Positions 41,809-53,465 of a stretch of DNA of 64,000 bases are shown one piece after another. A program made the translations under genes and the position numbers. How positions within the stretch are numbered: position 1 is the first letter of the stretch; the number at the start of each line of letters is the position of its first letter. The DNA comes from Candidatus Bathyarchaeota archaeon. Its GTDB lineage: Archaea; Thermoproteota; Bathyarchaeia; 40CM-2-53-6; RBG-13-38-9. Where the stretch lies: the NCBI GenBank assembly GCA_963807605.1, contig CAWECG010000004.1, positions 224,001 to 288,000 on the forward strand, written 5' to 3'. Below the pieces are notes generated by a model that had not been told where the DNA came from, did not search any database, and was given only the letters and a program-made list of their open reading frames with translations.

Positions 41809-42468
41809 CTACTTAGGGTTTAAGGCGTTATAAAGGATCTTTACTGCGTCGCTAATACCGACTCCCCTCAGGCGTCTCTTGAAGTACAGGGTCTTTATTG
41901 GGACAGCGATTATTCGAAGTTCTTTCTTAGATGAGACAATCAGCATCTCAGAGGCCCAACGGTAGTCTATTGATCCGTGCTTGGCTATCTCGGCAACCTT
42001 ACGGGAAAACGCACGAAACCCCGACTGTGAGTCGTCAATCTTAGTCCCGCAAGCTAGTGAAGTTGCGATTGACAGGGCTTCATTACCGATCCTCTTGTAG
42101 AACGGCATCGCCGAGCTGCCCTTCAACATTCTCGAGCCGATGACTATGTCTGCCTTTTCGTCCAGTAAAGGCGCAATTACCGATGGGATGTCGGTTGGAT
42201 CATGCTGCCCGTCTCCATCAAGGGTCACAATGATGTCGGCGCCGTTGCGTAAAGCCAGAGATAATCCAGTTGAGAGAGCAGCCCCCACACCTAGCCTAGT
42301 TACGTGCCTAGCTACTCTTCCTCCCGCGTCTCTGGCGTTTTTTGCTGTTTTGTCATTACTTCCATCGTCTACAACTAGTACTAGATTACAGTGACTCCTA
42401 GCCTTCTCTACAACTGCTCCTATGGTTGATTCTTCATTGAAGGCTGGGATAACACAGACTACTCGCAC
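41809..42468 (-). CDS. GT2 glycosyltransferase (polyprenol-phosphate glycosyltransferase/DPM-like)
   Basis: IPAFNEE, VDDGS.D.T, LDGDGQHDP, GSR and DSQSGFRAF motifs. Confidence 0.9.
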   Translation of the reverse strand: MRVVCVIPAFNEESTIGAVVEKARSHCNLVLVVDDGSNDKTAKNARDAGGRVARHVTRLGVGAALSTGLSLALRNGADIIVTLDGDGQHDPTDIPSVIAPLLDEKADIVIGSRMLKGSSAMPFYKRIGNEALSIATSLACGTKIDDSQSGFRAFSRKVAEIAKHGSIDYRWASEMLIVSSKKELRIIAVPIKTLYFKRRLRGVGISDAVKILYNALNPK

Positions 42469-42548
42469 TCAGAAGCACCGGTCTCTTATATTATCGAAAT
42501 AGTCGGAGGCAACGAGACCTTCGAAACACTCATTCCAGAAAAAGATTC

Positions 42549-42556
42549 CTATTTCT
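42549..42556 (+). repeat. Target-site duplication copy 1 (CTATTTCT)
   Basis: The identical 8-mer occurs at 46456-46463 and 50483-50490, each time directly abutting a TIR. Confidence 0.9.
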
Positions 42557-42636
42557 GGCTTTGTCAAGTCTCCGTCGGTTCGGTTAGTTCTAGGCGGCTG
42601 TCAAAAGTCGTCGGCTACTGCAAGGTGAACTAGGTT

Positions 42637-42783
42637 TTGAATGACACAGAACTAGAACAGAAAATCGTACTACTTGAGAGAAGAATAAAAAGGCTGGAAA
42701 ACCGTTCCAAAGATGAGTTCATATTCCGAGCGTTTGTTGGACTACTGTTCCTTCTCTTCTTGCTTCTCATTGCGTTTCGCTAG
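42637..42783 (+). CDS. Small coiled-coil + TM protein (48 aa, E1 cargo, absent from ORF track)
   Basis: TTG start; MNDTELEQKIVLLERRIKRLENRSKDEFIFRAFVGLLFLLFLLLIAFR. Confidence 0.5.
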   Translation: MNDTELEQKIVLLERRIKRLENRSKDEFIFRAFVGLLFLLFLLLIAFR

Positions 42784-43623
42784 TTTCTTCTTGATTTGGT
42801 TGTAAAACTCTATATCCGAACCCCAGATCGAAGGAATGACTTGAAACAAAAGAAAGTAAGCCCCTATTCCTATGGCTCCAAGGGCAAACAATGGATTATA
42901 GACAACATCATTGATAATGAGATAAATCGGGTTTTGACTGGTTTCAACTGTGATCGAGACGGTTGTTGTGGCGAGATATCTTGTGACAAAGCTAGGACTT
43001 GTAGGTGTTAGTACATTCGCTGATACGTGGTCGCCCATCCCTATCGAGTCACTGATTGTGGGCTTGAACGCCATGTGATTGGGTATTTGATTCACGTCTT
43101 GTTGGTATATGAATTGGGCTGCATCTTTGGCATTTATAAAGTAGTCACCTGAAATGTCAGCCGTGAGTACAAAGAGAATCAGGGGAACTTCTATTTTTGA
43201 GTTGGCGTAGGTTAAGACGTTCTTTTCCAGTAGGACGTATTTGCCTAGAGTGGCGAATTGGTAGGGGAAGAGGTTGTTGAATGTATCATTGTAATCCATC
43301 ACAACATTTGGTCGGTTTGATTGAATTGTGGCAAATATCAACGCGACATGATCGGAGTTGTACGGCGAAGATTGTAGAACGACTACTTGGAAGGAATGTT
43401 GTACATCGTGGTATAGTGTAAGATTTTCCTTTATACTATCGAAATCTGGTCTGTTGATATAAGTTGAGTTCTTTAAGAGTTCGTTGTAGCTGTCTATTAG
43501 ATTGAGTACATATCCCACAGTTTTGTTGTGTTCTGGCAGCCTGTATTGAGCGAGGACTTTTCCTTGAATGCTAGAGAACATTAATAACACAAGGAATAAA
43601 GTGAGGATGGTTACTTTTCTCAA
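42742..43623 (-). CDS. Secreted/membrane-anchored hypothetical protein (E1 cargo)
   Basis: Signal peptide (MRKVTILTLFLVLLMFSS...VLAQ), Thr-rich linker, C-terminal TM and charged tail. Likely TTG start at 43623. Confidence 0.75.
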   Translation of the reverse strand: MRKVTILTLFLVLLMFSSIQGKVLAQYRLPEHNKTVGYVLNLIDSYNELLKNSTYINRPDFDSIKENLTLYHDVQHSFQVVVLQSSPYNSDHVALIFATIQSNRPNVVMDYNDTFNNLFPYQFATLGKYVLLEKNVLTYANSKIEVPLILFVLTADISGDYFINAKDAAQFIYQQDVNQIPNHMAFKPTISDSIGMGDHVSANVLTPTSPSFVTRYLATTTVSITVETSQNPIYLIINDVVYNPLFALGAIGIGAYFLLFQVIPSIWGSDIEFYNQIKKKLAKRNEKQEEKEQ

Positions 43624-43633
43624 ACATGATTGA

Positions 43634-43783
43634 TCAGTCAACCAGATTCTTTCCCTTGAAATATTCCCCAAGCACAGCACGGACGGTTTCTGGAATAGTT
43701 TCTAGTTTACGTGATTTCCTTTCGATCTCTAGTGCCTTAACCATTTCGTCTGACATACTCACCATTATCTTTTGCATTGGCAT
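43634..43783 (-). CDS. Small ribbon-helix-helix-like protein divergent from the E1 transposase (49 aa, absent from ORF track)
   Basis: MPMQKIMVSMSDEMVKALEIERKSRKLETIPETVRAVLGEYFKGKNLVD aligns with the N-terminus of 48412-48879 in E2. Confidence 0.8.
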   Translation of the reverse strand: MPMQKIMVSMSDEMVKALEIERKSRKLETIPETVRAVLGEYFKGKNLVD

Positions 43784-43793
43784 ATCGATGACA

Positions 43794-43854
43794 CTACCAT
43801 TAGATACCTATAACAACCTTTATAAATCTGTTGCTACTAGATATCTAATGGTAG
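43794..43854. promoter_or_regulatory. Divergent promoter with inverted operator-like repeats (E1)
   Basis: CTACCATTAGATA (43794-43806) and TATCTAATGGTAG (43842-43854) flank TTTATAAA (43819-43826). Confidence 0.65.
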
Positions 43855-43864
43855 CGATTGGAAT

Positions 43865-45016
43865 ATGCGAACCGAGAAGCCTGTTGATGAAGGTCGTTTG
43901 ATGAGAGGACAACAAATAGCGAAGCTAGATCATCAAATCAAACGGCTAGATGACAAAACCTACCAAGTCAACTCACAGTCAGGTCACGGCTTATACACAG
44001 TGGTTAAGGGTTATCGTGATTGGCGTTGCAGTTGCCCCGACCACATGTACCGAGAATTGAAGTGCAAGCATATTTGGGCAATCGAGTTTAGCCTCAAATT
44101 AAGGGATAGGGTAAGAGAAAACGTTGTAATTCAACCTGTCACAATTAACACATGTCTGTACTGTCAATCCAAGGACATAATCAGAGATGGCTTACGACAT
44201 AACAAGTGTGGAGACATTCAGGTTTTCAACTGTAAATCTTGTGGTCGATACTTCACATTAAACCTCGGCTTCGAGCACATGAAACATAATCCGCATGGAA
44301 TCACAACAGCCATGCAACTGTACTTCTCAGGGGAGAGCCTCCGCAACACAGCTAGGTCGCTACGCTTGATGGGAGTTCAGGTTAGCTATCAGACTGTATG
44401 GAATTGGATTCAGAAGTACACGACTCTGATGGAGAAGTATCTGGACAAGATCACGCCTCAAGTTTCTGAGGTTTGGCGAGCAGATGAACTCTACGTGAAG
44501 ATTCGAGGCAATATGAAGTATGTCTTTGCCATGATGGATGATGAGACACGCTTCTGGATAGCTCAGGAAGTTGCGAGTAGCAAGGAAGCGCATGATGCAA
44601 GAAACTTATTCCAGATGGCTAGGGAGAGAGTGGGAAAGAAGCCTCAGATTCTAGTAACAGACGGCTTACGCTCTTATCATGATGCTTGGTTGAAAGAGTA
44701 CCGAACCAATAGGTTAGCTGATAGTACCATTCACATCCACAATATCACACTTGAAGGAACCCACCATAACAACAAGATGGAACGCTTCAACGGCGAAGTC
44801 AGAGACAGAGAGAAAGTTATGCGAGGACTGAAGAAACCTGATACGCCGATTCTGAAGGGTTATCAGATATTCCATAACTACGTAAGACCGCATGAAGGAT
44901 TAGAAGGTAAGACCCCTGCCGATGTGGCGGGAATCAAGGTTGAGGGAGAAAACAAGTGGGTCACACTAATCCAAAACGCAAGTCGTCTCCCGAAGGTTGA
45001 CAGCAGAAGCCCCTAG
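43865..45016 (+). CDS. IS6-family DDE transposase with N-terminal SWIM finger and Zn ribbon
   Basis: CSCPDH...CKH (SWIM), CLYC...CKSC, HTH (GESLRNTAR...VWNWIQKY) and the DDE triad WRADELY / VTDGL / NNKMERFN. Confidence 0.92.
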   Translation: MRTEKPVDEGRLMRGQQIAKLDHQIKRLDDKTYQVNSQSGHGLYTVVKGYRDWRCSCPDHMYRELKCKHIWAIEFSLKLRDRVRENVVIQPVTINTCLYCQSKDIIRDGLRHNKCGDIQVFNCKSCGRYFTLNLGFEHMKHNPHGITTAMQLYFSGESLRNTARSLRLMGVQVSYQTVWNWIQKYTTLMEKYLDKITPQVSEVWRADELYVKIRGNMKYVFAMMDDETRFWIAQEVASSKEAHDARNLFQMARERVGKKPQILVTDGLRSYHDAWLKEYRTNRLADSTIHIHNITLEGTHHNNKMERFNGEVRDREKVMRGLKKPDTPILKGYQIFHNYVRPHEGLEGKTPADVAGIKVEGENKWVTLIQNASRLPKVDSRSP

Positions 45017-45107
45017 ATCATCTAGTTGAAGGAACCAGAATTCCCACTAGATTCTAGAAAGAACATACTGTGAAAACTTAAAATCTTGGGACTTTAATCA
45101 TTTTTGA

Positions 45108-45383
45108 GTGATTTCTTTGGAACTTGCAAGGATGATCTATGATGTCATGAGGATACTAGATGAAGCTACGAAATTTGTTAACAAGAAGATCAGCGACTCA
45201 AGAGACGATCATGAAAGACAATGCTACGAGGATTATAGGAAGCACATAAGGGAACTTGGCACGTCTGTCTATACGTTGATAGGTAAGATGAGAATGGACA
45301 GAATACTAGATCCCAAAGAAGTGGAAATGCTGGAGCAGATGGGAGCAATGGGTCTCCAAATAGCGGAGGAGCCAATTGCATGA
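45108..45383 (+). CDS. Hypothetical helical protein (E1 cargo)
   Basis: 91-aa ORF translationally coupled (ATGA) to the next ORF. Confidence 0.6.
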   Translation: MISLELARMIYDVMRILDEATKFVNKKISDSRDDHERQCYEDYRKHIRELGTSVYTLIGKMRMDRILDPKEVEMLEQMGAMGLQIAEEPIA

Positions 45384-45604
45384 GTTCGACAGATAAATTC
45401 AAGAATGCTGTTGAAAATGCGAAGAATTTTCTTTCCGTGCAGGGAGGGTTCTATTCTACATTTCTCCAACTAAAGGAAGTTGTTGAATCTGACAACAAAT
45501 GGATCATAAAATTCGACTATACTGCGTTTACTGAAACAGCAGTACTTCAAGTAGATGTTGACATGGAAAAGGGAGAAATAGTCGGTTTCAGGCGTGTAGG
45601 ATAA
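45380..45604 (+). CDS. Small hypothetical protein, possible PepSY-like fold (E1 cargo)
   Basis: AVE.AK.FL...W.IKF...VDVDMEKGEIVGF pattern. Confidence 0.6.
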   Translation: MSSTDKFKNAVENAKNFLSVQGGFYSTFLQLKEVVESDNKWIIKFDYTAFTETAVLQVDVDMEKGEIVGFRRVG

Positions 45605-45672
45605 TCATTGAAGAGCGGGAGTAACACTGACTAGCCAGAGGGCGTGTTGAGACAGCTCTATTGTGATGAAGA

Positions 45673-46218
45673 ATGTCCGAGTCGAATGCAGCCATAGCTG
45701 GTGCAGTTGTTGGTGGCATTATCGCCATATGTGGAAGCGTTGTATTCTATTTCGTAACTCATAGAGCCGAGTATAGGGAACTTAAAGACCGTTCGCTAAA
45801 AGACCTGATTGCAGAACTTAAGCAGAACAAACGGTATCAACTCAGAAATCATTACATTGACCTAGAAGACAGTGCGTACAAACGACTTAGAGAAGGCGGA
45901 TTTTTTCATACGTTTTCCAATGATTTGCAAAGCGACTTACAGGAACTCTATGCTTTCATTCACGAAAAAAACGGATTGATTGCTTACTACAATAGTGTTG
46001 GTGCAATTGGCTTGGCAGAGTCAAAAAATCTGAGCGCAAACTTTCTTCCACCGTGGAACGCTGCGCAGAGTAAGGCGCTTGGCGACATTTTAGGCATCAT
46101 CAAAAGTAAAGAAGAAAAAATCGCCTCGTTGATTGATAAAATCCTTCCCGCCCTTAGAAATCTGCTTAGAGACCCAATCACTAGCAAAGAGACCCAATCC
46201 CAATCACTAGCAAACTAA
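45673..46218 (+). CDS. Hypothetical protein with N-terminal TM anchor (E1 cargo)
   Basis: AAIAGAVVGGIIAICGSVVFYFV followed by a helical domain. Confidence 0.7.
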   Translation: MSESNAAIAGAVVGGIIAICGSVVFYFVTHRAEYRELKDRSLKDLIAELKQNKRYQLRNHYIDLEDSAYKRLREGGFFHTFSNDLQSDLQELYAFIHEKNGLIAYYNSVGAIGLAESKNLSANFLPPWNAAQSKALGDILGIIKSKEEKIASLIDKILPALRNLLRDPITSKETQSQSLAN

Positions 46219-46455
46219 CTTCTACAACTCGGCAACTTAACAGAACCCTCATTTGTATTTTTTCGCGTCCCGCCACTTGACACCCTAACTCTCATTCAGA
46301 GCGCAAGTCCCAACACGTAACAGGGAGAAGCATGTCCTATGAACGTAACAGAACCCGTTGCTGAATACCAACTTCTCAAGGCATTAACTGAGCCAAACCG
46401 ATGAAAGTTGACAACAAGGAGAAACTAAGGCAACCGACGCAGACTTGACAGAACC

Positions 46456-46463
46456 CTATTTCT
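46456..46463 (+). repeat. Target-site duplication copy 2 (CTATTTCT) at the E1/E2 junction
   Basis: AGACTTGACAGAACC-CTATTTCT-GGTTCTGTTAAGTT. Confidence 0.92.
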
Positions 46464-46566
46464 GGTTCTGTTAAGTTGAAGGCTCATTCATTGTCTTTGT
46501 TTAGGTTTTCTAGGCTGTTAACCGTCAGCCCTTTTCGTTATCCCAGTTGGAGGTGTCATTCCAGCG

Positions 46567-46785
46567 GTGTCATATATGCGTACTAGGAGACCTCTTACTT
46601 TTCGTCAAATACTTGCCTTGATCGGAGGTAGCTTAATTCTTGGAAGTATTACGGTAGTCCTTTTTGTGTCCAACCACATTGCTGCGACATACTTCATGGC
46701 GTACAATACCACAGCGTACGGTGTGATATTACTAGATCTATTCAAGGAGAAGCCTGAGAATCATAACCGACACAATGAGAGTTAG
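46567..46785 (+). CDS. Small 2-TM hypothetical protein (E2 cargo)
   Basis: Two hydrophobic segments. Confidence 0.45.
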   Translation: MSYMRTRRPLTFRQILALIGGSLILGSITVVLFVSNHIAATYFMAYNTTAYGVILLDLFKEKPENHNRHNES

Positions 46786-47166
46786 AATAATGCCCGCTAC
46801 CCTCACAACTGCGTCAAGAAGTGGCGAGACAGCAAGAGGAGGAAATAGGTATTCACAGACATAATCTAACATAAGGCCAGGGATAATCCCCACTTGGAAT
46901 GCAATTCCGGCAATGAATGCGATTCGCGCCCCGTTAGTACACTCCCTAGCAACTGATGAGGGTATCCAATCATCTGAAACTCCAAGTGCCATCAGCAAGA
47001 CATACGCACTCCAATATGCCATCAAGAAAGCTACCAGAGATCTAAGATGTAGCCCGCCAAATAAAGTAACATCGAAGAGATCCCGGATTGCTAATAGCGT
47101 TCCAAGAACACCGAGTACGAATATGCCTCGAATTTCCTCTCTAACAAGTTGGGAGTTTTCTTTCAT
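46738..47166 (-). CDS. Multi-TM hypothetical membrane protein (E2 cargo)
   Basis: About four hydrophobic segments; lies directly downstream of the E2 transposase. Confidence 0.7.
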   Translation of the reverse strand: MKENSQLVREEIRGIFVLGVLGTLLAIRDLFDVTLFGGLHLRSLVAFLMAYWSAYVLLMALGVSDDWIPSSVARECTNGARIAFIAGIAFQVGIIPGLMLDYVCEYLFPPLAVSPLLDAVVRVAGIILTLIVSVMILRLLLE

Positions 47167-47195
47167 GAATAATTGTTACGCAATCGGAAGGTATT

Positions 47196-48323
47196 TCATT
47201 GTTTGCTTGCGTTCTGGATTATTGTCAGCCACTTGTTCTGTCCTTTGATTTCTATTCCCGCTGCTTCTGCTGGCGTTTTGCCGTCTAACCCTTCATGTGG
47301 ACGAACATAGTTATGGTAGATTTGATAACCTTTGAGAATTGGTGTATCTACGTTCTTCAGGCCCCGCATGACCTTCTCTCTGTCTCTGATTTCACCGTTG
47401 AGCCGTTCCATCTTATTGTTGTGGTGTGTGCCAGCTAACGTAGTGTGGCTAATATGGGTCGTACTAGTCTCTAGCTGGTTAGTTCTGAATTCCTTCATGT
47501 AGGCTTCATGGTAAGATCGTAAACCGTCAGTTATGAGAATCTTGGGCTTCTTCTCCGTCACTTCTTTACCAATCTGGAATAGGTGCCTCACATCATGTGC
47601 ATATTTTGAATCAGCCACTTCCTGAGCAATCAGGAATCTTGTTTGGTCGTCCATCAGCGCGAATAGGTATTTCATGTTGCCCTTGATTTTAATGTACAAC
47701 TCATCAGATCGCCAAGTGCCTGAAACTTGTGGTGTTATCTTGTCTAGGTACTTCTCCATCAGACCCGTGTATTTCTCTATCCACTTGTAGACAGCAACAT
47801 GCGAAACCTGAACACCTTGAAGCCTCAAGAATTTCTGAACATTCCGTAGTGATTCTCCTGTGAAATATAGTTGCATGGCTGAAGTGATCGTTTGTGGAGT
47901 AGCTTTCATTCGTTCAAAGCCCAAATTGATCACAAACCACTTTCCACAGTCCTTGCACATGTACCGTTGAATGTTTCCACTTAGGTTATGGCGTAACCCA
48001 TGTCTCACGATATTCTGAGAGGCACAAGAGATGCAGACTTGTGTGTCGAGAGGTTTGATTACTACTTGGTTGCTGACTTCGGCTCGTAGTGCTTGCGAGA
48101 ATTCGACAGCCCAAATATGCTTACACTTAACCTCACGATAGATATGGTCGGGGCAACTGCAATCCCAACCTCGACCACGCTTAACAACTGAGTAGAATCC
48201 TTGACCTGATTGTGAGGTTACTTGGTAGGTCTTCTCATCTAGACGTTTCACTTGATTCCCAATTTTGACTATTGCTTGAGCCTTCATTACGCGGCTTTCG
48301 GATAGGGGTTGTTCGGTTCTCAT
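47196..48323 (-). CDS. IS6-family DDE transposase with SWIM finger and Zn ribbon (divergent paralog of 43865-45016)
   Basis: CSCPDH..CKH, CISC...CKDC and WRSDELY / ITDGL / NNKMERLN. Roughly two-thirds identical to the E1 enzyme by eye. Confidence 0.92.
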   Translation of the reverse strand: MRTEQPLSESRVMKAQAIVKIGNQVKRLDEKTYQVTSQSGQGFYSVVKRGRGWDCSCPDHIYREVKCKHIWAVEFSQALRAEVSNQVVIKPLDTQVCISCASQNIVRHGLRHNLSGNIQRYMCKDCGKWFVINLGFERMKATPQTITSAMQLYFTGESLRNVQKFLRLQGVQVSHVAVYKWIEKYTGLMEKYLDKITPQVSGTWRSDELYIKIKGNMKYLFALMDDQTRFLIAQEVADSKYAHDVRHLFQIGKEVTEKKPKILITDGLRSYHEAYMKEFRTNQLETSTTHISHTTLAGTHHNNKMERLNGEIRDREKVMRGLKNVDTPILKGYQIYHNYVRPHEGLDGKTPAEAAGIEIKGQNKWLTIIQNASKQ

Positions 48324-48339
48324 GTGAATACATCTGTTG

Positions 48340-48402
48340 CTATTGATATCAATAGATACTACACAAGTTATTTATAAGAGTTGTGGCTATTGATATCAAT
48401 AG
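48340..48402. promoter_or_regulatory. Divergent promoter with two perfect 16-bp palindromes (E2)
   Basis: CTATTGATATCAATAG at 48340-48355 and 48387-48402 flank TTTATAA (48371-48377). Confidence 0.75.
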
Positions 48403-48411
48403 GTATCGAAC

Positions 48412-48879
48412 TTGGGTATGAAGCGATTCATGCTCTCAATAACTGAAGAAATGGAGAACGCACTTGACAGAGAGCGAGAGAAGCGGATGCTTGGATCGAT
48501 ACCAGAGACGGCAAGAGTAATTCTAGGTGAGTATTTGACAAAGGTTGATCCACTAACTCCAATGGTAATCGGTGATTTCTACTTCGAATTTGGAGAAATC
48601 GAGGATGTAATGAGAGTAGCTGCATTCGTAACCCCCAACAAGCCAAACATCCTATCAAAGCCGATTCCAAATGAAACTACGCGTATAAACAGACTGAAGA
48701 AATTGTTCAGTGATCTCGCAAGACTACAACCGTACAAAGTAGAAACTGGGCAAGTGGAGATGATATTGGCTCAAGGAACGCAAGTGGATGTTCCAGCAAT
48801 CAGAGCCAACCTCTCAAAAAAAGACAAAACGGAAATGACAATGAAAGAAGTTGTAGACCTAATTGGAAAACATCTCTAA
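48412..48879 (+). CDS. RHH-like protein fused to an unknown ~110-aa domain, divergent from the E2 transposase
   Basis: MKRFMLSITEEMENALDREREKRMLGSIPETARVILGEYL is homologous to 43634-43783. Confidence 0.78.
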   Translation: MGMKRFMLSITEEMENALDREREKRMLGSIPETARVILGEYLTKVDPLTPMVIGDFYFEFGEIEDVMRVAAFVTPNKPNILSKPIPNETTRINRLKKLFSDLARLQPYKVETGQVEMILAQGTQVDVPAIRANLSKKDKTEMTMKEVVDLIGKHL

Positions 48880-49327
48880 GAGGCAATGCCTTGCCAACAA
48901 AGCGAGAGAACGAAGGCGCTATGCTTAAAGATCATATCCAGAATGTTTACCCATGTCACACAGGATTGTGTGACAAAGTAACAAAGAAGAAATATGACTG
49001 TCAAGAGATGTCCATGCGACGGAAGTCCATTGTCTTTCAAAGTTTACTGCCCGCAGTGTGGACACGACCATTTGCTCTAGCAAATTCCCCTATTCTTCTC
49101 GTGAGTGGTCTGCCCTCCTCACCCAGTCTGATCTGAATGCAGGTGAAGCAGGAATGGTATGAAGTCAGTGGCGGACTTACACCAATTCTGTTGCACAACA
49201 TGATTTAGACGAATGGGGCGTCTACGAACTGATTTCGCCATAACGAGACGATATAGCGCACGCTAGAGCCGAAGACGCAAACGATTAAATATGGATTAGA
49301 AAAAAACAATTCTAACGGCTTTATTCT

Positions 49328-50188
49328 ATGCTACAACGGAGTCACAATGATGTTGTACGGAGTCACAATGATGTTGTACGGAGTCACAATGATGTTGTAC
49401 GGAGTCACAATGATGTTATACGTAATTTGCTTGTGTTATTTCTGATTGTATTGCTCCTCCCAATTATTGTAAATCCTGCTCACCCGGATTCGCAGTATAT
49501 TCTTCATGTTCAGACGCCTATCGGCGAGTTCGTTACCATATCTTATAGTGGAGACTATGTCGGCTCCAACAGCACACCTTTCACTATCGGCCCTAAATCC
49601 GCCCCTTTCACTGTAACATTGACGGCTCCCTCAAAATACGTCGATCAGGTGTTGGAGGGTTGGATTCTTGATGGTGTGAGTATGGGAAATTCAAATACAT
49701 CAACAGTCACGGTAAACGAGAATCATAGCGAGAGGGTAGCTGCAGCTGGCTATGTTACTAATTTCGCGGTCGTTGAATGGGTTAGTTTTAGCAGCACTCC
49801 TATAATCGACGTTCCCATGAATTCGGGCGCGACTTACTATACCCCTTTTTACAGAACGGGCGTCCCCTTGGGGGTACACGCTAGTGTAACTGCTCCTCTC
49901 ACCTACAGAGGTTACACTTTTAATGGCTGGCTCGCTGACGGGCTCTGGATTCCTACCCCATCAATAAGTCTCTATGCGATTGGCGTCAATGAATCTAGAT
50001 CGGCTACAGCGTACTATTCGCTTATCACACCACCAAGCGCCCAAACAAGACCGGTCGGCGGCGTCGTGGAACCCGTCAACAAACTCACACTTTTCACACC
50101 ATACTTGGCCGTCTTTGGAGTGGTCGCGGCTGTTGCAGTCGTCATCGTCACGGATAGGAAACGCAGAGAACTCACAAATAGTCAGTGA
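49328..50188 (+). CDS. Cell-surface protein with two beta-rich repeats and a C-terminal PVGG..PVNK-TM-basic tail (E2 cargo)
   Basis: Signal peptide; two TAP....GW..DG repeats (InlB B-repeat-like); PVGGVVEPVNKLTLFTPYL-TM-RKRR. Confidence 0.75.
   Translation: MLQRSHNDVVRSHNDVVRSHNDVVRSHNDVIRNLLVLFLIVLLLPIIVNPAHPDSQYILHVQTPIGEFVTISYSGDYVGSNSTPFTIGPKSAPFTVTLTAPSKYVDQVLEGWILDGVSMGNSNTSTVTVNENHSERVAAAGYVTNFAVVEWVSFSSTPIIDVPMNSGATYYTPFYRTGVPLGVHASVTAPLTYRGYTFNGWLADGLWIPTPSISLYAIGVNESRSATAYYSLITPPSAQTRPVGGVVEPVNKLTLFTPYLAVFGVVAAVAVVIVTDRKRRELTNSQ
49336..49422 (+). repeat. 21-bp tandem repeat x4 (ACGGAGTCACAATGATGTTGT)
   Basis: Three perfect copies plus one with a single mismatch; encodes (RSHNDVV)n ahead of the signal peptide. 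Confidence 0.95.
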
Positions 50189-50482
50189 GCTGATTTCGGA
50201 ATCCCTGCTGGTTTTGTGTGTACCTTAGCTGGCGAGAGCATCTAGAAATCAAATTCACTTTGCGCCGAGCGTAAATTGGTCATAACTATTCGTATCAATT
50301 ATTGCGTATTTAAGCCCCCCACAAGTAACCCTGCCGAGAAGGGTTCCTAAATTAGCTGTCAAGCTACTGGAAATCCCTATGGGGAATCTCCCGAACTTGA
50401 CAGAACCCTCCGATGAGCCGACGGTTAACAGCCCAAAAAACCCAGTCGATTTCCAAGCATGAGCCGATATCTTAACAGAACC

Positions 50483-50490
50483 CTATTTCT
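50483..50490 (+). repeat. Target-site duplication copy 3 (CTATTTCT) at the E2/E3 junction
   Basis: CTTAACAGAACC-CTATTTCT-GGTTCTGTCAAATT. Confidence 0.92.
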
Positions 50491-50689
50491 GGTTCTGTCA
50501 AATTGACGGGAACATAAGCAGCCGTCAGTTAGGGTGTCACCTGGCGGGACATGAAAAGGTTCTGAGGTTCTGGTAACATCACGTCTTCGACTACCTAATA
50601 GTGTTGTAACAAATCGGGTTGATTCTGATTCAGAACGCAAGTCAAAAGTAGTAAGTGGCTTAAACATATGCCCCGAGAGGTGAGAGAAT

Positions 50690-51007
50690 ATGAGCAGTAA
50701 AGAAGGCTCGATTCATCTAGAATGGAAATACGCTGACGATTTCAAGCGTGTTTACGCCACTAATGCATTTGGGATCGTTGGAGAGTACGACTATAGGCTA
50801 CTGTTTGGTGGGGGCAATGTGCTTTTGCAGCAAGACCCCAATTCCATACCCAAGGCGCAAGGAGAGTACAATGTTGAGTTGGTTTTTTCATTTAGGACTC
50901 TGAAAGAGTTGCGAAACATGGTCGATGAAGCAGTTAAGAATGTGGAAATGCGCTTTGGCGAGATCAAGTTACCGAAGAAGCCAGAGGACTACTTCAAGCA
51001 ACCTTAA
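50690..51007 (+). CDS. DUF3467-like small protein (E3 cargo)
   Basis: FKRVYATNAFG...YDYRLLFG...ELVFS...KEL...E.RFGEI pattern. Confidence 0.65.
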   Translation: MSSKEGSIHLEWKYADDFKRVYATNAFGIVGEYDYRLLFGGGNVLLQQDPNSIPKAQGEYNVELVFSFRTLKELRNMVDEAVKNVEMRFGEIKLPKKPEDYFKQP

Positions 51008-51033
51008 CAAATTATCTATCACTAGGCAAAAGA

Positions 51034-51354
51034 CTACTCGGAAGAACCTGATGATTTCTGACCCGTCATCTTCTTTAGCAATTCCAAAGGCACTTTTGTT
51101 TTGACGATGGGTTGAATCTTGTAGGTATAGATTCGTTCTCCTTTTGAATCATAACATTATGTTCTAGCAGCATTCAGTAATTCCAACTTAACACTGATGG
51201 TTACTTGATCTGTTGTACGATAAACATTCCACTGATCTTGTGTCTTGACCTTGATACTATCATCCAGTTCTTCCTCTGTGAACTGAACAAGTTCATCCGG
51301 AGTATAATGCTTAGTAGATGGTTCACCCCAAAACTTCTCTGGCACCACAACTAC
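51034..51354 (-). pseudogene. 5'-truncated hypothetical gene with internal TAA (51157-51159)
   Basis: The frame continues past the stop: ...DQWNVYRTTDQVTISVKLELLNAART*CYDSKGERIYTYKIQPIVKTKVP... Confidence 0.55.
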
Positions 51355-51398
51355 GCTCTAGCGTGCGCTTGTATCTTGCCTGAGCAGGACTTCAGGGT

Positions 51399-53465
51399 TC
51401 AGGGTGGAATGTAGTTGAGGCATCTTAGGGCATAGTTGAGTGAAACGAAGAGAAAAGTGACCATGAATAGGATCTGACAAAGTCTACCCAGACGCCCACC
51501 CAGCCCGCCAAGTCTTGTCGATACAGTTGCAGCCCCAAAAACAGCGAGGATTTGGTATGGAACCATATAGAGCAGTCTCCACTGCCAAAACGAAGTCTCC
51601 ACCAGTAGTGGTATTGAAGTCACCAAAAGTAATGAGAATAGCAGTCTGCTCAGGTTACTATTGAAGCCTCTCGCCGAAGCTAAGCCTACAATAGAGAGCA
51701 AGATTAGGATCGGATTTGCGAAGAAGCCGCCTACGTAGTATTCGAAGGTGAACGAAAAAATGGTGAGAAAACTCGATAGATTGTTCAGACTTATAGATGC
51801 AAGTCCTTCGCTCGCGAGCCGGATAAACTCCCCCGTTGAGAACAACGAAATGACCAGTAAGAGCAGCGCGAGATTAGCGGCCACGACTATGATGCTCGAT
51901 TTCAGAAACTGACTTTTGGGCAGAGAACGTTTGGTTATCAAGGTCCGAGGAAGACTTAAGACTACAAATACTCCGAGAGCCGTGAGCACAACCGCCCAAG
52001 TCCAAGCATGTATTACAAGAGTGACTACACTGCCAAAGATCACCATCAGCACGTGCGAATTTGAAGGTTGCTGCCACATCAATACCAGAAGGCTGAAGAA
52101 AAGTGCAGTCCACCCGAGCGCAAGCCAATTCGCGAAGGTACCTGCAAAAATTCCGACGGTTGTCGCTATCGAGAACAAACCAATAAACGCCGAGAAGGAG
52201 GCTAAGACATCGTCTCGCGTGATAGTCCTGAATAGTAGTAAAGTTGCTACTCCCACTAACGTTGCTGGAACTGCTGGACCGATTTTGACCACGAGCTCAG
52301 CTGGAAATGAGGTTAGAACTTTGATCGCATACAGTATTAGCAAGTAGGGTACTCTACTTGCACCGCCGTAACTAGAGATTATGTGGTGGAAACCCTCTGA
52401 GGTTGACATTGCAATAAGATTCTGATAGTACCAAGGTGTATCTACGCCGATGAGTCTTTTTGTGTAGAAATAAGGATAGTATACAAGGAACAGGGAGCTG
52501 CATACTATCGCGGGGATGGTTAGATACACAAGATATTTGTGATTCCTGGACGACCGAGTGAGGGCGTCGTTGTTTATGGAGTAGAGAGGTTTATCAGTTG
52601 TTGACATACGACGAGGTATCACGTTTTCTTGATGATGAACCCCAGCCGAGAACCCGAGTTGTTTGACAAGAGATCGTAAGCAGGGAATCCACAACCATGA
52701 GAACATTAGAGCTGCCAGAGCGGGCAGAGCAACAGGATAGAGAACACCGAGAAGTTTCACCTCAAGCGAAGCGAAGAGCCATCTTGGTTCACCATCAAAG
52801 GGAACGTGTGGATTCAGGGTGTTGTATAACCAGCCAGCGGCAGAGCCTATCTCTATTACGAGGGCTGTCGTTAGAAGTGAAGCTACGAATCCCAGCGCGA
52901 GGCCTTTAGGGTTTTCAACTACTTCGGCCCCACGAAGCAATAAGGGAAAGAATGCGGTTACCACTGCCGAAACGATTCCAAAGAATGCTGCAGCCAGGTT
53001 TATGCCCAAGAGATAAAAAGCAATAGAAGAGAATATGAGCAGAATTGGCAGAATTGTGACTCGTCTCCTAAGAAGCACCTTATTTTGGAGTGCTATCCAA
53101 GCCGCCGCCACGGTAAGACTGAAAGCGACCCACAGTAGCCCATCTGTCTGAGGACCGAAGAACTGTACCTGGACTATGTTCGGAGTATAGGCTAAGTAGG
53201 ATTTTATCCCAATTGAACTTGTAAGTATCGGGAGACTGAAGAGGAGAATGAATGAAGTTAGGACCGAGATTAAGACATGCAGGACTTTGCGTCCGAAACG
53301 AAATGCAAGAATGAGTATCGCTACAAGGACAAGTCCATATAGCGGCAGAGCAATGCTTGCTGGCCCAAATTGGCTTGGAGTTCGTGTCAATAGCGATATA
53401 GTACGCGCGCGCGTCAGCACAGCAATGAGCTGAACTGTCTGCATGTATCTGCCAAGCATAACCAA
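51399..53465 (-). CDS. Polytopic membrane protein, probable GT-C fold glycosyltransferase
   Basis: Many TM helices, a GVDTPWY loop, and HAWTW and WRLLYMVP motifs. Confidence 0.6.
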   Translation of the reverse strand: MVMLGRYMQTVQLIAVLTRARTISLLTRTPSQFGPASIALPLYGLVLVAILILAFRFGRKVLHVLISVLTSFILLFSLPILTSSIGIKSYLAYTPNIVQVQFFGPQTDGLLWVAFSLTVAAAWIALQNKVLLRRRVTILPILLIFSSIAFYLLGINLAAAFFGIVSAVVTAFFPLLLRGAEVVENPKGLALGFVASLLTTALVIEIGSAAGWLYNTLNPHVPFDGEPRWLFASLEVKLLGVLYPVALPALAALMFSWLWIPCLRSLVKQLGFSAGVHHQENVIPRRMSTTDKPLYSINNDALTRSSRNHKYLVYLTIPAIVCSSLFLVYYPYFYTKRLIGVDTPWYYQNLIAMSTSEGFHHIISSYGGASRVPYLLILYAIKVLTSFPAELVVKIGPAVPATLVGVATLLLFRTITRDDVLASFSAFIGLFSIATTVGIFAGTFANWLALGWTALFFSLLVLMWQQPSNSHVLMVIFGSVVTLVIHAWTWAVVLTALGVFVVLSLPRTLITKRSLPKSQFLKSSIIVVAANLALLLLVISLFSTGEFIRLASEGLASISLNNLSSFLTIFSFTFEYYVGGFFANPILILLSIVGLASARGFNSNLSRLLFSLLLVTSIPLLVETSFWQWRLLYMVPYQILAVFGAATVSTRLGGLGGRLGRLCQILFMVTFLFVSLNYALRCLNYIPP

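What the first reader, a model, noticed from the sequence alone, without database searches (positions are those of the whole stretch)
42549..51357. Site-specific tandem array of cargo-carrying IS6-family transposons: an integron-like gene-accretion locus
Seen: the structure CTATTTCT-[E1 3,899 bp]-CTATTTCT-[E2 4,019 bp]-CTATTTCT-[E3 remnant]. Each complete element has its own matching TIR pair (core GGTTCTGTYAAG), one central transposase, a divergent RHH gene and unrelated cargo on both sides. The two transposases are clearly diverged and oppositely oriented, so these are independent insertions rather than a duplication or a composite transposon. Established: IS6 elements (IS26, IS257, IS1216) are about 0.8 kb, have GG(C/T)(A/T)CTGT ends, make 8-bp TSDs and show little target specificity in copy-in mode. 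Inference: at least three different elements hit exactly the same 8 bp, recognising either the chromosomal site or the end of a resident element. This builds a cassette array of mostly membrane and surface genes. It is the best candidate for an undescribed system in this window.
Basis: partly seen in the sequence, partly recalled or inferred. Interest (0 to 1): 0.92.

Follow-up and report, generated by a model that had tools for sequence, protein, structure and literature searches.

The report
Promoter-anchored stack of archaeal cargo transposons
Three related cargo-carrying transposons in an archaeon sit end to end sharing one 8-base target, most likely because their family keeps landing at one exact spot just upstream of host gene promoters, so each newcomer pushes the older ones outward and a gene-accumulating stack builds up.

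Summary
In detail: CTATTTCT at 42549, 46456 and 50483 separates two complete elements (3,899 and 4,019 bp; transposases 67% identical, opposite orientation) and a relic. Short-read contigs span all three junctions, and relatives show the empty site. The interpretation changes: CTATTTCT is not a recognised site. The elements belong to a large archaeal family (SWIM + Zn ribbon + HTH + IS6-like DDE, about 380 aa). Elsewhere it forms the same junctions with 63 different 8-bp spacers. The family inserts at a fixed register about 5 bp upstream of a TATA box (32/73 flanks, 3% background). In arrays the free flank of the complete element is the promoter side (20/22, against 13/48 for single elements), and intact members are promoter-proximal (13/13). 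Arrays therefore most likely grow by re-hitting one promoter-anchored cut site, re-duplicating the 8-mer. Caveat: this window's own anchor is a non-canonical T-tract in that register, so help from resident ends is not excluded. It is not an integron or a strict IS6/IS26 member. This scan noted the promoter-seeking family before in other genomes; I found no paper on it.

The parts
41809..42468 (-). host glycosyltransferase-2 gene; array lies 80 bp upstream of its start
   Evidence: Pfam PF00535; conserved next to the membrane gene in relatives
42537..42548 (-). candidate anchor: GAATC + TTTTTCT T-tract starting 5 bp beyond the duplication (the family's modal TATA offset); non-canonical
   Evidence: in register and conserved in three relatives but fails the TTTAWA test; could be a weak TATA or a terminator
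42549..42556 (+). target duplication copy 1 (CTATTTCT)
   Evidence: host-derived by alignment to the empty site
42557..46455 (+). element E1, complete unit transposon, 3,899 bp, bipartite ends of about 60 bp
42637..43680 (.). E1 left cargo: 48-aa ORF (+) and 312-aa membrane-anchored ORF (-), no family
43634..43783 (-). small RHH-like regulator, divergent from the transposase
   Evidence: homologous to E2's and to genes beside relatives' transposases; fold inferred
43777..43871 (.). inverted repeat around the shared TATA region of regulator and transposase (likely operator)
   Evidence: (I7); function inferred
43865..45016 (+). E1 transposase, 383 aa: SWIM, C4 Zn ribbon, HTH, IS6-like DDE
45108..46218 (+). 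E1 right cargo: 91, 74 and 181-aa ORFs, no family above cut-off
46222..46247 (-). nested foreign right end A inside E1
46248..46355 (-). nested foreign right end B (108-bp relic with its own second binding motif)
46356..46455 (-). cognate right end of E1; 94% identical to an end on contig C2 up to exactly 46356
46456..46463 (+). target duplication copy 2
   Evidence: spanned by short-read contig
46464..50482 (-). element E2, complete unit transposon, 4,019 bp
46567..47166 (.). E2 cargo: 72-aa ORF (+) and 142-aa four-helix membrane ORF (-)
47196..48323 (-). E2 transposase, 375 aa, 67% identical to E1's
48335..48405 (.). twin palindromes between transposase and regulator (likely operator)
   Evidence: D10, I10
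48412..48879 (+). RHH-like regulator with a C-terminal extension (155 aa)
49328..50188 (+). E2 cargo: surface protein (InlB B-repeat-like lead) with a 21-bp tandem repeat at its 5' end and a C-terminal anchor shared with host loci
50382..50407 (-). nested foreign end inside E2, 75 bp from its tip
50483..50490 (+). target duplication copy 3
   Evidence: spanned by short-read contig
50491..51350 (+). E3 relic: left end at 50491, nested left end at 50566, DUF3467 gene 50690-51007, no transposase; right boundary uncertain
51399..53465 (-). host membrane-protein gene, adjacent to GT2 in relatives

Best explanation
The array is a stack of independent unit transposons of a widespread archaeal family (2-6 kb; one SWIM/Zn-ribbon/HTH/DDE transposase, a divergent small repressor, variable cargo, GGTTCTGTYAAG ends, 8-bp and sometimes 9-bp duplication). 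Shown: the family cuts at a fixed distance upstream of host promoters, with the duplication ending about 5 bp before the TATA box, so BRE and TATA stay intact on one side. Inferred: because that promoter-side half survives each insertion, the next element finds the same anchor, cuts the promoter-side copy of the 8-mer, duplicates it again and lands flush against the resident end. The newest element is next to the promoter and older ones are displaced and decay. Here E1 is newest, E2 older, E3 the relic, anchored on the GT2 side. Inferred and untested: the anchor is read through promoter-bound TBP/TFB by the extra N-terminal SWIM/Zn-ribbon module (about even odds against direct reading of the T/A tract).
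For: 63 distinct 8-bp spacers against 6 of 9 bp in end-to-end junctions from metagenomes. 18 of 76 ends of protein-selected elements abut another end at 8 bp; one more at 7 bp, none at 9. TTTAWA (up to 1 mismatch) at offset 3-7 in 32 of 73 unique flanks, peak at offset 5, genome background 3%, 1-9 of 73 in other windows. Unselected BRE-like A at offsets 1-2 (61-69%) and ORF starts mostly 21-58 bp out (25/31 against 16/36, p 0.003). Free flank of one-sided arrays has the TATA in 20/22 against 13/48 single-element flanks (p 5e-7). Intact transposases are promoter-proximal in 13 of 13 asymmetric arrays. The S17e promoter carries arrays at the same register in six assemblies, with unrelated elements wherever compared. 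Lone, different elements hit one gene's promoter in the same register without any resident end (L054/L065, L044/L046). Targets include TBP, thermosome, L1, Lsm and Fe-S assembly genes.
Against: The window's own GT2-side flank fails the TATA consensus test, and the conserved T-tract could be a terminator. One other array (L133) lacks a TATA in register on either side. Only 12-16 of 24 single elements have a TATA in register. Nested ends cluster 68-124 bp inside resident ends without a TATA in register, which suggests resident ends influence some events.
Confidence: 0.68

Rival explanations
1. Resident-end targeting as in IS30/IS911: the first element lands by a promoter, and later ones are recruited by transposase bound to a resident end and insert 8 bp from its tip, alone or together with the promoter signal.
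For: Base-exact 8-bp spacing. This window and L133 lack a canonical TATA. 18 of 44 nested same-sense ends lie 68-124 bp inside another end. IS30 inserts next to its own inverted repeats (PMC9333248).
Against: It predicts newcomers on either side, but 20/22 free flanks are the promoter side and 13/13 intact members are proximal. Lone elements reach the same register without a resident. IS26 targeted reactions need identical ends and transposases (PMC7986276), whereas neighbours here are only 67% identical.
Confidence: 0.2
2. Arrays are mostly products of in-place replicative (copy-in) events and recombination among residents, such as duplication, inversion and adjacent deletion, rather than fresh arrivals.
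For: L043 holds two identical 2,644-bp copies in inverted orientation. L078 has one junction spacer inverted. Many ends in this genome lack a partner duplication.
Against: E1 and E2 share no cargo and have 67%-identical transposases. Each keeps its own matched pair of outer ends and perfect duplications. This process can explain the relics, not the shared register.
Confidence: 0.08
3. Sequence-specific recognition of CTATTTCT or a unique chromosomal att site.
For: Three identical copies in this array.
Against: 63 different spacers with only a weak symmetric bias. Other junctions in this same genome use TGCCCTGC and a 9-mer.
Confidence: 0.03
4. Misassembly.
For: No raw reads were listed for direct checking.
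Against: Separately assembled short-read contigs span all three junctions. The same architecture occurs in dozens of other assemblies.
Confidence: 0.01

Closest known systems
IS6/IS26 family insertion sequences (Harmer & Hall 2019, PMC6807381; Varani et al. 2021, PMC7986276)
   Same: DDE_Tnp_IS240 catalytic domain with HTH, ends beginning GGTTCTGT, 8-bp duplication
   Different: 380 aa against 213-254 aa; extra SWIM + C4 ribbon; 2-6 kb with cargo on both sides; bipartite ends of about 60 bp; no E-DH---K signature; fixed-register promoter targeting; arrays share a duplicated target rather than an IS copy
TnGBS / ISLre2 / ISKra4 Mutator-like elements (Guerillot et al. 2014, PMC3942029)
   Same: DDE elements that insert at a fixed distance upstream of promoters (15-17 bp before -35)
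   Different: Unrelated transposase group; bacterial sigma-A promoters, oriented insertion; here archaeal BRE/TATA and both orientations (23 against 17)
Ty3 retrotransposon tethered to TFIIIB (10.1101/2021.07.27.453949)
   Same: Precise insertion fixed relative to a TBP-containing promoter complex, harmless to the gene; model for the inferred tether
   Different: Eukaryotic LTR retroelement at Pol III genes; the tether is shown there and only inferred here
Tandem casposons and tyrosine-integrase elements re-using one site (PMC6563490); Tn7 arrays at attTn7 (own knowledge)
   Same: Arrays separated by copies of one target duplication
   Different: Those use one or a few sequence-defined sites; this family re-uses any of many promoters with unrelated 8-mers
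IS30 / IS911 insertion next to resident inverted repeats (PMC9333248)
   Same: End-to-end junctions with a fixed spacer
   Different: 2-bp spacer for IS30 (about 3 bp for IS911, own knowledge), same element, unstable reactive junctions, no promoter polarity described
Integrons (own knowledge)
   Same: Polarised accretion of gene-bearing units at a fixed point, newest first
   Different: No tyrosine integrase or attC; each unit brings its own transposase and promoters; the host promoter faces away from the array

Membership tests
IS6/IS26 (strict, Harmer & Hall) | DDE transposase of the IS240/IS6 type with HTH | tested here: met
   PF13610 59.8 and 57.2 bits over cut-off 27; HTH at 133-199
IS6/IS26 (strict, Harmer & Hall) | NCBIfam IS6 model cut-off | tested here: inconclusive
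   119 bits against cut-off 125; best of all IS models
IS6/IS26 (strict, Harmer & Hall) | 8-bp target duplication | tested here: met
   (a minority 9 bp)
IS6/IS26 (strict, Harmer & Hall) | 14-bp end consensus with G1, G2, G7 and usually G10 | tested here: inconclusive
   first 8 bases match; position 10 is A; ends are bipartite, about 60 bp
IS6/IS26 (strict, Harmer & Hall) | about 0.8 kb, transposase 213-254 aa, no passengers | tested here: not met
   3.9 and 4.0 kb; family 2.0-5.6 kb; 375-383 aa
IS6/IS26 (strict, Harmer & Hall) | E-DH---K signature after the catalytic E | tested here: not met
   N at +3, R at +7 and +9
IS6/IS26 (strict, Harmer & Hall) | cointegrate-forming copy-in transposition | not testable with these tools
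   indirect hints only: inverted identical copies in L043, inverted spacer in L078
TnGBS/ISLre2 promoter-targeting elements | Mutator-like (p-MULT 3) transposase | tested here: not met
   ISLre2 model 14.6 bits against cut-off 200
TnGBS/ISLre2 promoter-targeting elements | insertion at a fixed distance upstream of promoters | tested here: met
   family level; this window's own site is non-canonical
Integron | tyrosine integrase gene at the array | tested here: not met
   no integrase among ORFs in or beside the array
Integron | cassettes without their own recombinase, expressed from a common promoter | tested here: not met
   each complete unit has its own transposase; genes run in both directions
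Composite transposon | two near-identical IS flanking the cargo | tested here: not met
   one central transposase per unit; the two are 67% identical
IS30/IS911-type end targeting | insertion beside a resident end regardless of host context | tested here: inconclusive
   polarity argues against it; nested ends and two arrays without TATA leave it open

The most novel reading that the evidence does not exclude
A widespread archaeal DNA-transposon family docks on the basal transcription machinery (TBP/TFB at BRE-TATA) through a SWIM/Zn-ribbon module. It thereby turns housekeeping promoters into reusable, harmless landing pads that accumulate age-ordered cassette arrays: a prokaryotic counterpart of Ty3-TFIIIB targeting that behaves as an integrase-free integron analogue.
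Probability: 0.4. Interest if true: 0.88.

Novelty: new variant of a known kind. Interest (0 to 1): 0.7.

Why it matters
It gives a rule for where and in what order foreign genes enter genomes of Bathyarchaeia, Nitrososphaeria and Methanoperedens: just upstream of core promoters, leaving them intact, newest nearest the promoter. Such arrays are readable records of gene acquisition. If the anchor is TBP/TFB, this would be a prokaryotic DNA transposase tethered to the eukaryote-like basal transcription machinery, and a candidate safe-site integration tool for archaea. The separate ingredients (promoter targeting, site re-use, passenger genes) each have precedents in other families.

Tried and rejected
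Complex prediction of TBP + TFB core + transposase 1-135: no answer; not evidence either way. Full-length structure model was poor (pLDDT 61). Foldseek found nothing at E<=0.001. VIA-align gave only middling matches (HTH 133-199; ZSWIM8 over 4-83, Z 6.5). No solved-structure relative by sequence. A promoter model learned from this genome's upstream regions drifted to a low-information motif and was uninformative, so textbook TATA consensi were used instead. Sequencing runs: none was listed. An exact junction pattern across 401 class genomes hit only 2; it was too strict and most assemblies are fragmented. No strain-level variant of this array was found. No partner duplication for the nested ends inside the array. 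The idea that nested end B marks an internal promoter was not supported by the C2 copy. Cargo had no convincing Pfam, NCBIfam or PADLOC family except DUF3467. Recalled 'cycloposons' do not exist in the library, and Asgard aloposons are unrelated. Literature searches found no description of this family or of TATA-anchored archaeal insertion; Filee 2007 was not held and subscription papers are not covered.
Full report
Observation. The octamer CTATTTCT lies at 42549, 46456 and 50483 and nowhere else on the + strand of the window. Between copies 1 and 2 is E1 (42557-46455, 3,899 bp) and between 2 and 3 is E2 (46464-50482, 4,019 bp). Each has its own matched pair of bipartite ends of about 60 bp. 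Each carries one transposase (383 and 375 aa, 67% identical, opposite strands, catalytic triad intact), a homologous small divergent gene with palindromes in the shared promoter region, and unrelated cargo. After copy 3 a further left end opens E3, which has a DUF3467 gene but no transposase and no right end with the octamer. Four more ends are nested inside (46247, 46355, 50407, 50566). Short-read contigs from run ERR10755942 match the window across all three junctions. In relatives of the same family the flanking GT2 and membrane-protein genes are about 100-145 bp apart, and the octamer aligns to host sequence there.

Family. The closest named homologues and loci are Bathyarchaeia; over 5,000 homologues were found at E<=1e-40, with loci also in Nitrososphaeria and Methanoperedens. 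The domain order is SWIM, C4 Zn ribbon, HTH, IS240-type DDE. A de novo search found 38 complete elements of 2.0-5.6 kb with perfect 8-bp duplications of varied sequence. Among their ORFs only the transposase and small divergent genes recur widely; 113 of 122 clusters are singletons. The host genome holds 13 transposase matches and two more end-to-end junctions with other spacers.

The 8-mer is not the signal. A metagenome scan for two ends facing outward with a 4-14 bp gap returned 63 distinct 8-bp spacers, 6 of 9 bp and at most 4 of any other length. In a sample chosen by protein alone, 18 of 76 ends abut another end at exactly 8 bp. Arrays reach five or more units with the same spacer at each junction. 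Stacking is therefore a family trait, and the spacer is whatever the first insertion duplicated.

What fixes the register. An earlier scan note on a related family (e1-2956936) suggested promoters, which I tested. Reading outward from the duplication, TTTAWA with up to one mismatch starts at offset 3-7 in 32 of 73 unique flanks, with a peak at 5; background is 3% and other windows give 1-9. On that side the unselected positions show a BRE-like A bias, and ORFs start mostly 21-58 bp out. Downstream genes include TBP, thermosome, L1, Lsm and Fe-S assembly genes and S17e. The S17e promoter carries arrays in six assemblies at the same register, with different octamers and, wherever compared, elements that share little beyond the transposase. 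Lone elements of different sequence also hit one promoter in the same register (L054/L065, L044/L046), so precision does not need a resident end.

Why arrays form. If newcomers sought resident ends they should land on either side. Instead the free flank of the complete element is the TATA side in 20 of 22 one-sided arrays, against 13 of 48 flanks of single elements (p 5e-7). In 13 of 13 arrays with a clear TATA side and unequal members the intact transposases are promoter-proximal; these are not fully independent. The simplest mechanism (inference) is that BRE and TATA survive on one side, the next element cuts the same promoter-side octamer, and older elements are pushed outward and decay. 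L326 and L327 show the same layout as this window: two complete elements, then a relic.

This window. The order E1 intact, E2 intact, E3 relic points to an anchor on the GT2 side. There the flank reads GAATC then TTTTTCT, with the T-run starting at the modal offset and conserved in three relatives, but it fails the TATA consensus. In the empty site the opposite direction shows no candidate. It may be a weak TATA, a decayed one, or a terminator-like tract. This is the main weakness of applying the family rule here, and with the clustering of nested ends 68-124 bp inside other ends (18 of 44) it leaves room for a contribution from resident ends. How the promoter is read is not shown. The N-terminal SWIM/Zn-ribbon module is highly conserved and is the obvious candidate, by analogy with Ty3 on TFIIIB (10.1101/2021.07.27.453949). 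An identical inverted duplicate (L043) and an inverted spacer (L078) hint at IS6-like copy-in chemistry.

Comparison and novelty. The elements work like promoter-seeking TnGBS/ISLre2 elements (PMC3942029) and build arrays like tandem casposons (PMC6563490), using an IS6-related enzyme. They fail the strict IS6/IS26 definition on size and signature (PMC6807381, PMC7986276) and are neither integrons nor composite transposons. I found no paper describing the family, its TATA register or its polarised arrays. This scan has noted the promoter-seeking family in other genomes; the spacer census and the polarity test are the additions here. Verdict: real, a new variant of known kinds, interest 0.7.

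Noticed in passing
window 50046-50247: The C-terminal anchor of E2's surface-protein cargo is 93-96% identical to three other loci in the genome (C3:457273, C3:755593, C4:67858), suggesting a shared, shuffled membrane-anchor module or capture from the host.
   Followed up: partly
window 49336-49419: Four near-perfect copies of a 21-bp tandem repeat at the 5' end of the surface-protein ORF; in frame (7 aa), possibly length-variable.
   Followed up: no
window 50558-50573: The 8 bp before the nested left end at 50566 themselves read like an end tip (GGTTCTGA), giving a tandem near-duplicate; unexplained.
   Followed up: no
L039, L043, L055, L068 (Hsp20-like promoter by my reading), L078, L081: A sub-group with GGTAACG ends forms long arrays, and its duplications (e.g. 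TTACGTAA) resemble the end sequence itself.
   Followed up: partly
L043 3521-6164 and 11185-13828; L078 4452-8770: Identical inverted duplicate within one array, and an inverted junction spacer: possible signatures of intramolecular copy-in inversion.
   Followed up: partly
G000 C4:185249, C1:423136, C1:136756, C3:327773, C2:46901, C3:610966: The host genome has at least six TBP paralogues (one or two truncated); its TFB at C4:320452 reads as C-terminally frameshifted.
   Followed up: no
G000 C1:184871-185712 and C4:158106-160975: An 842-bp transposase-less derivative and a complete single element, both with 9-bp duplications and a TATA 5-6 bp outside.
   Followed up: yes
ESM Atlas clusters: Two look-alike transposase clusters are mostly viral (Uroviricota), so the family may travel on viruses; taxa rest on few members.
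   Followed up: no
G000 C1:5286-6417: A sister element has a transposase 90% identical to E1's but different cargo and no matching duplication.
   Followed up: partly
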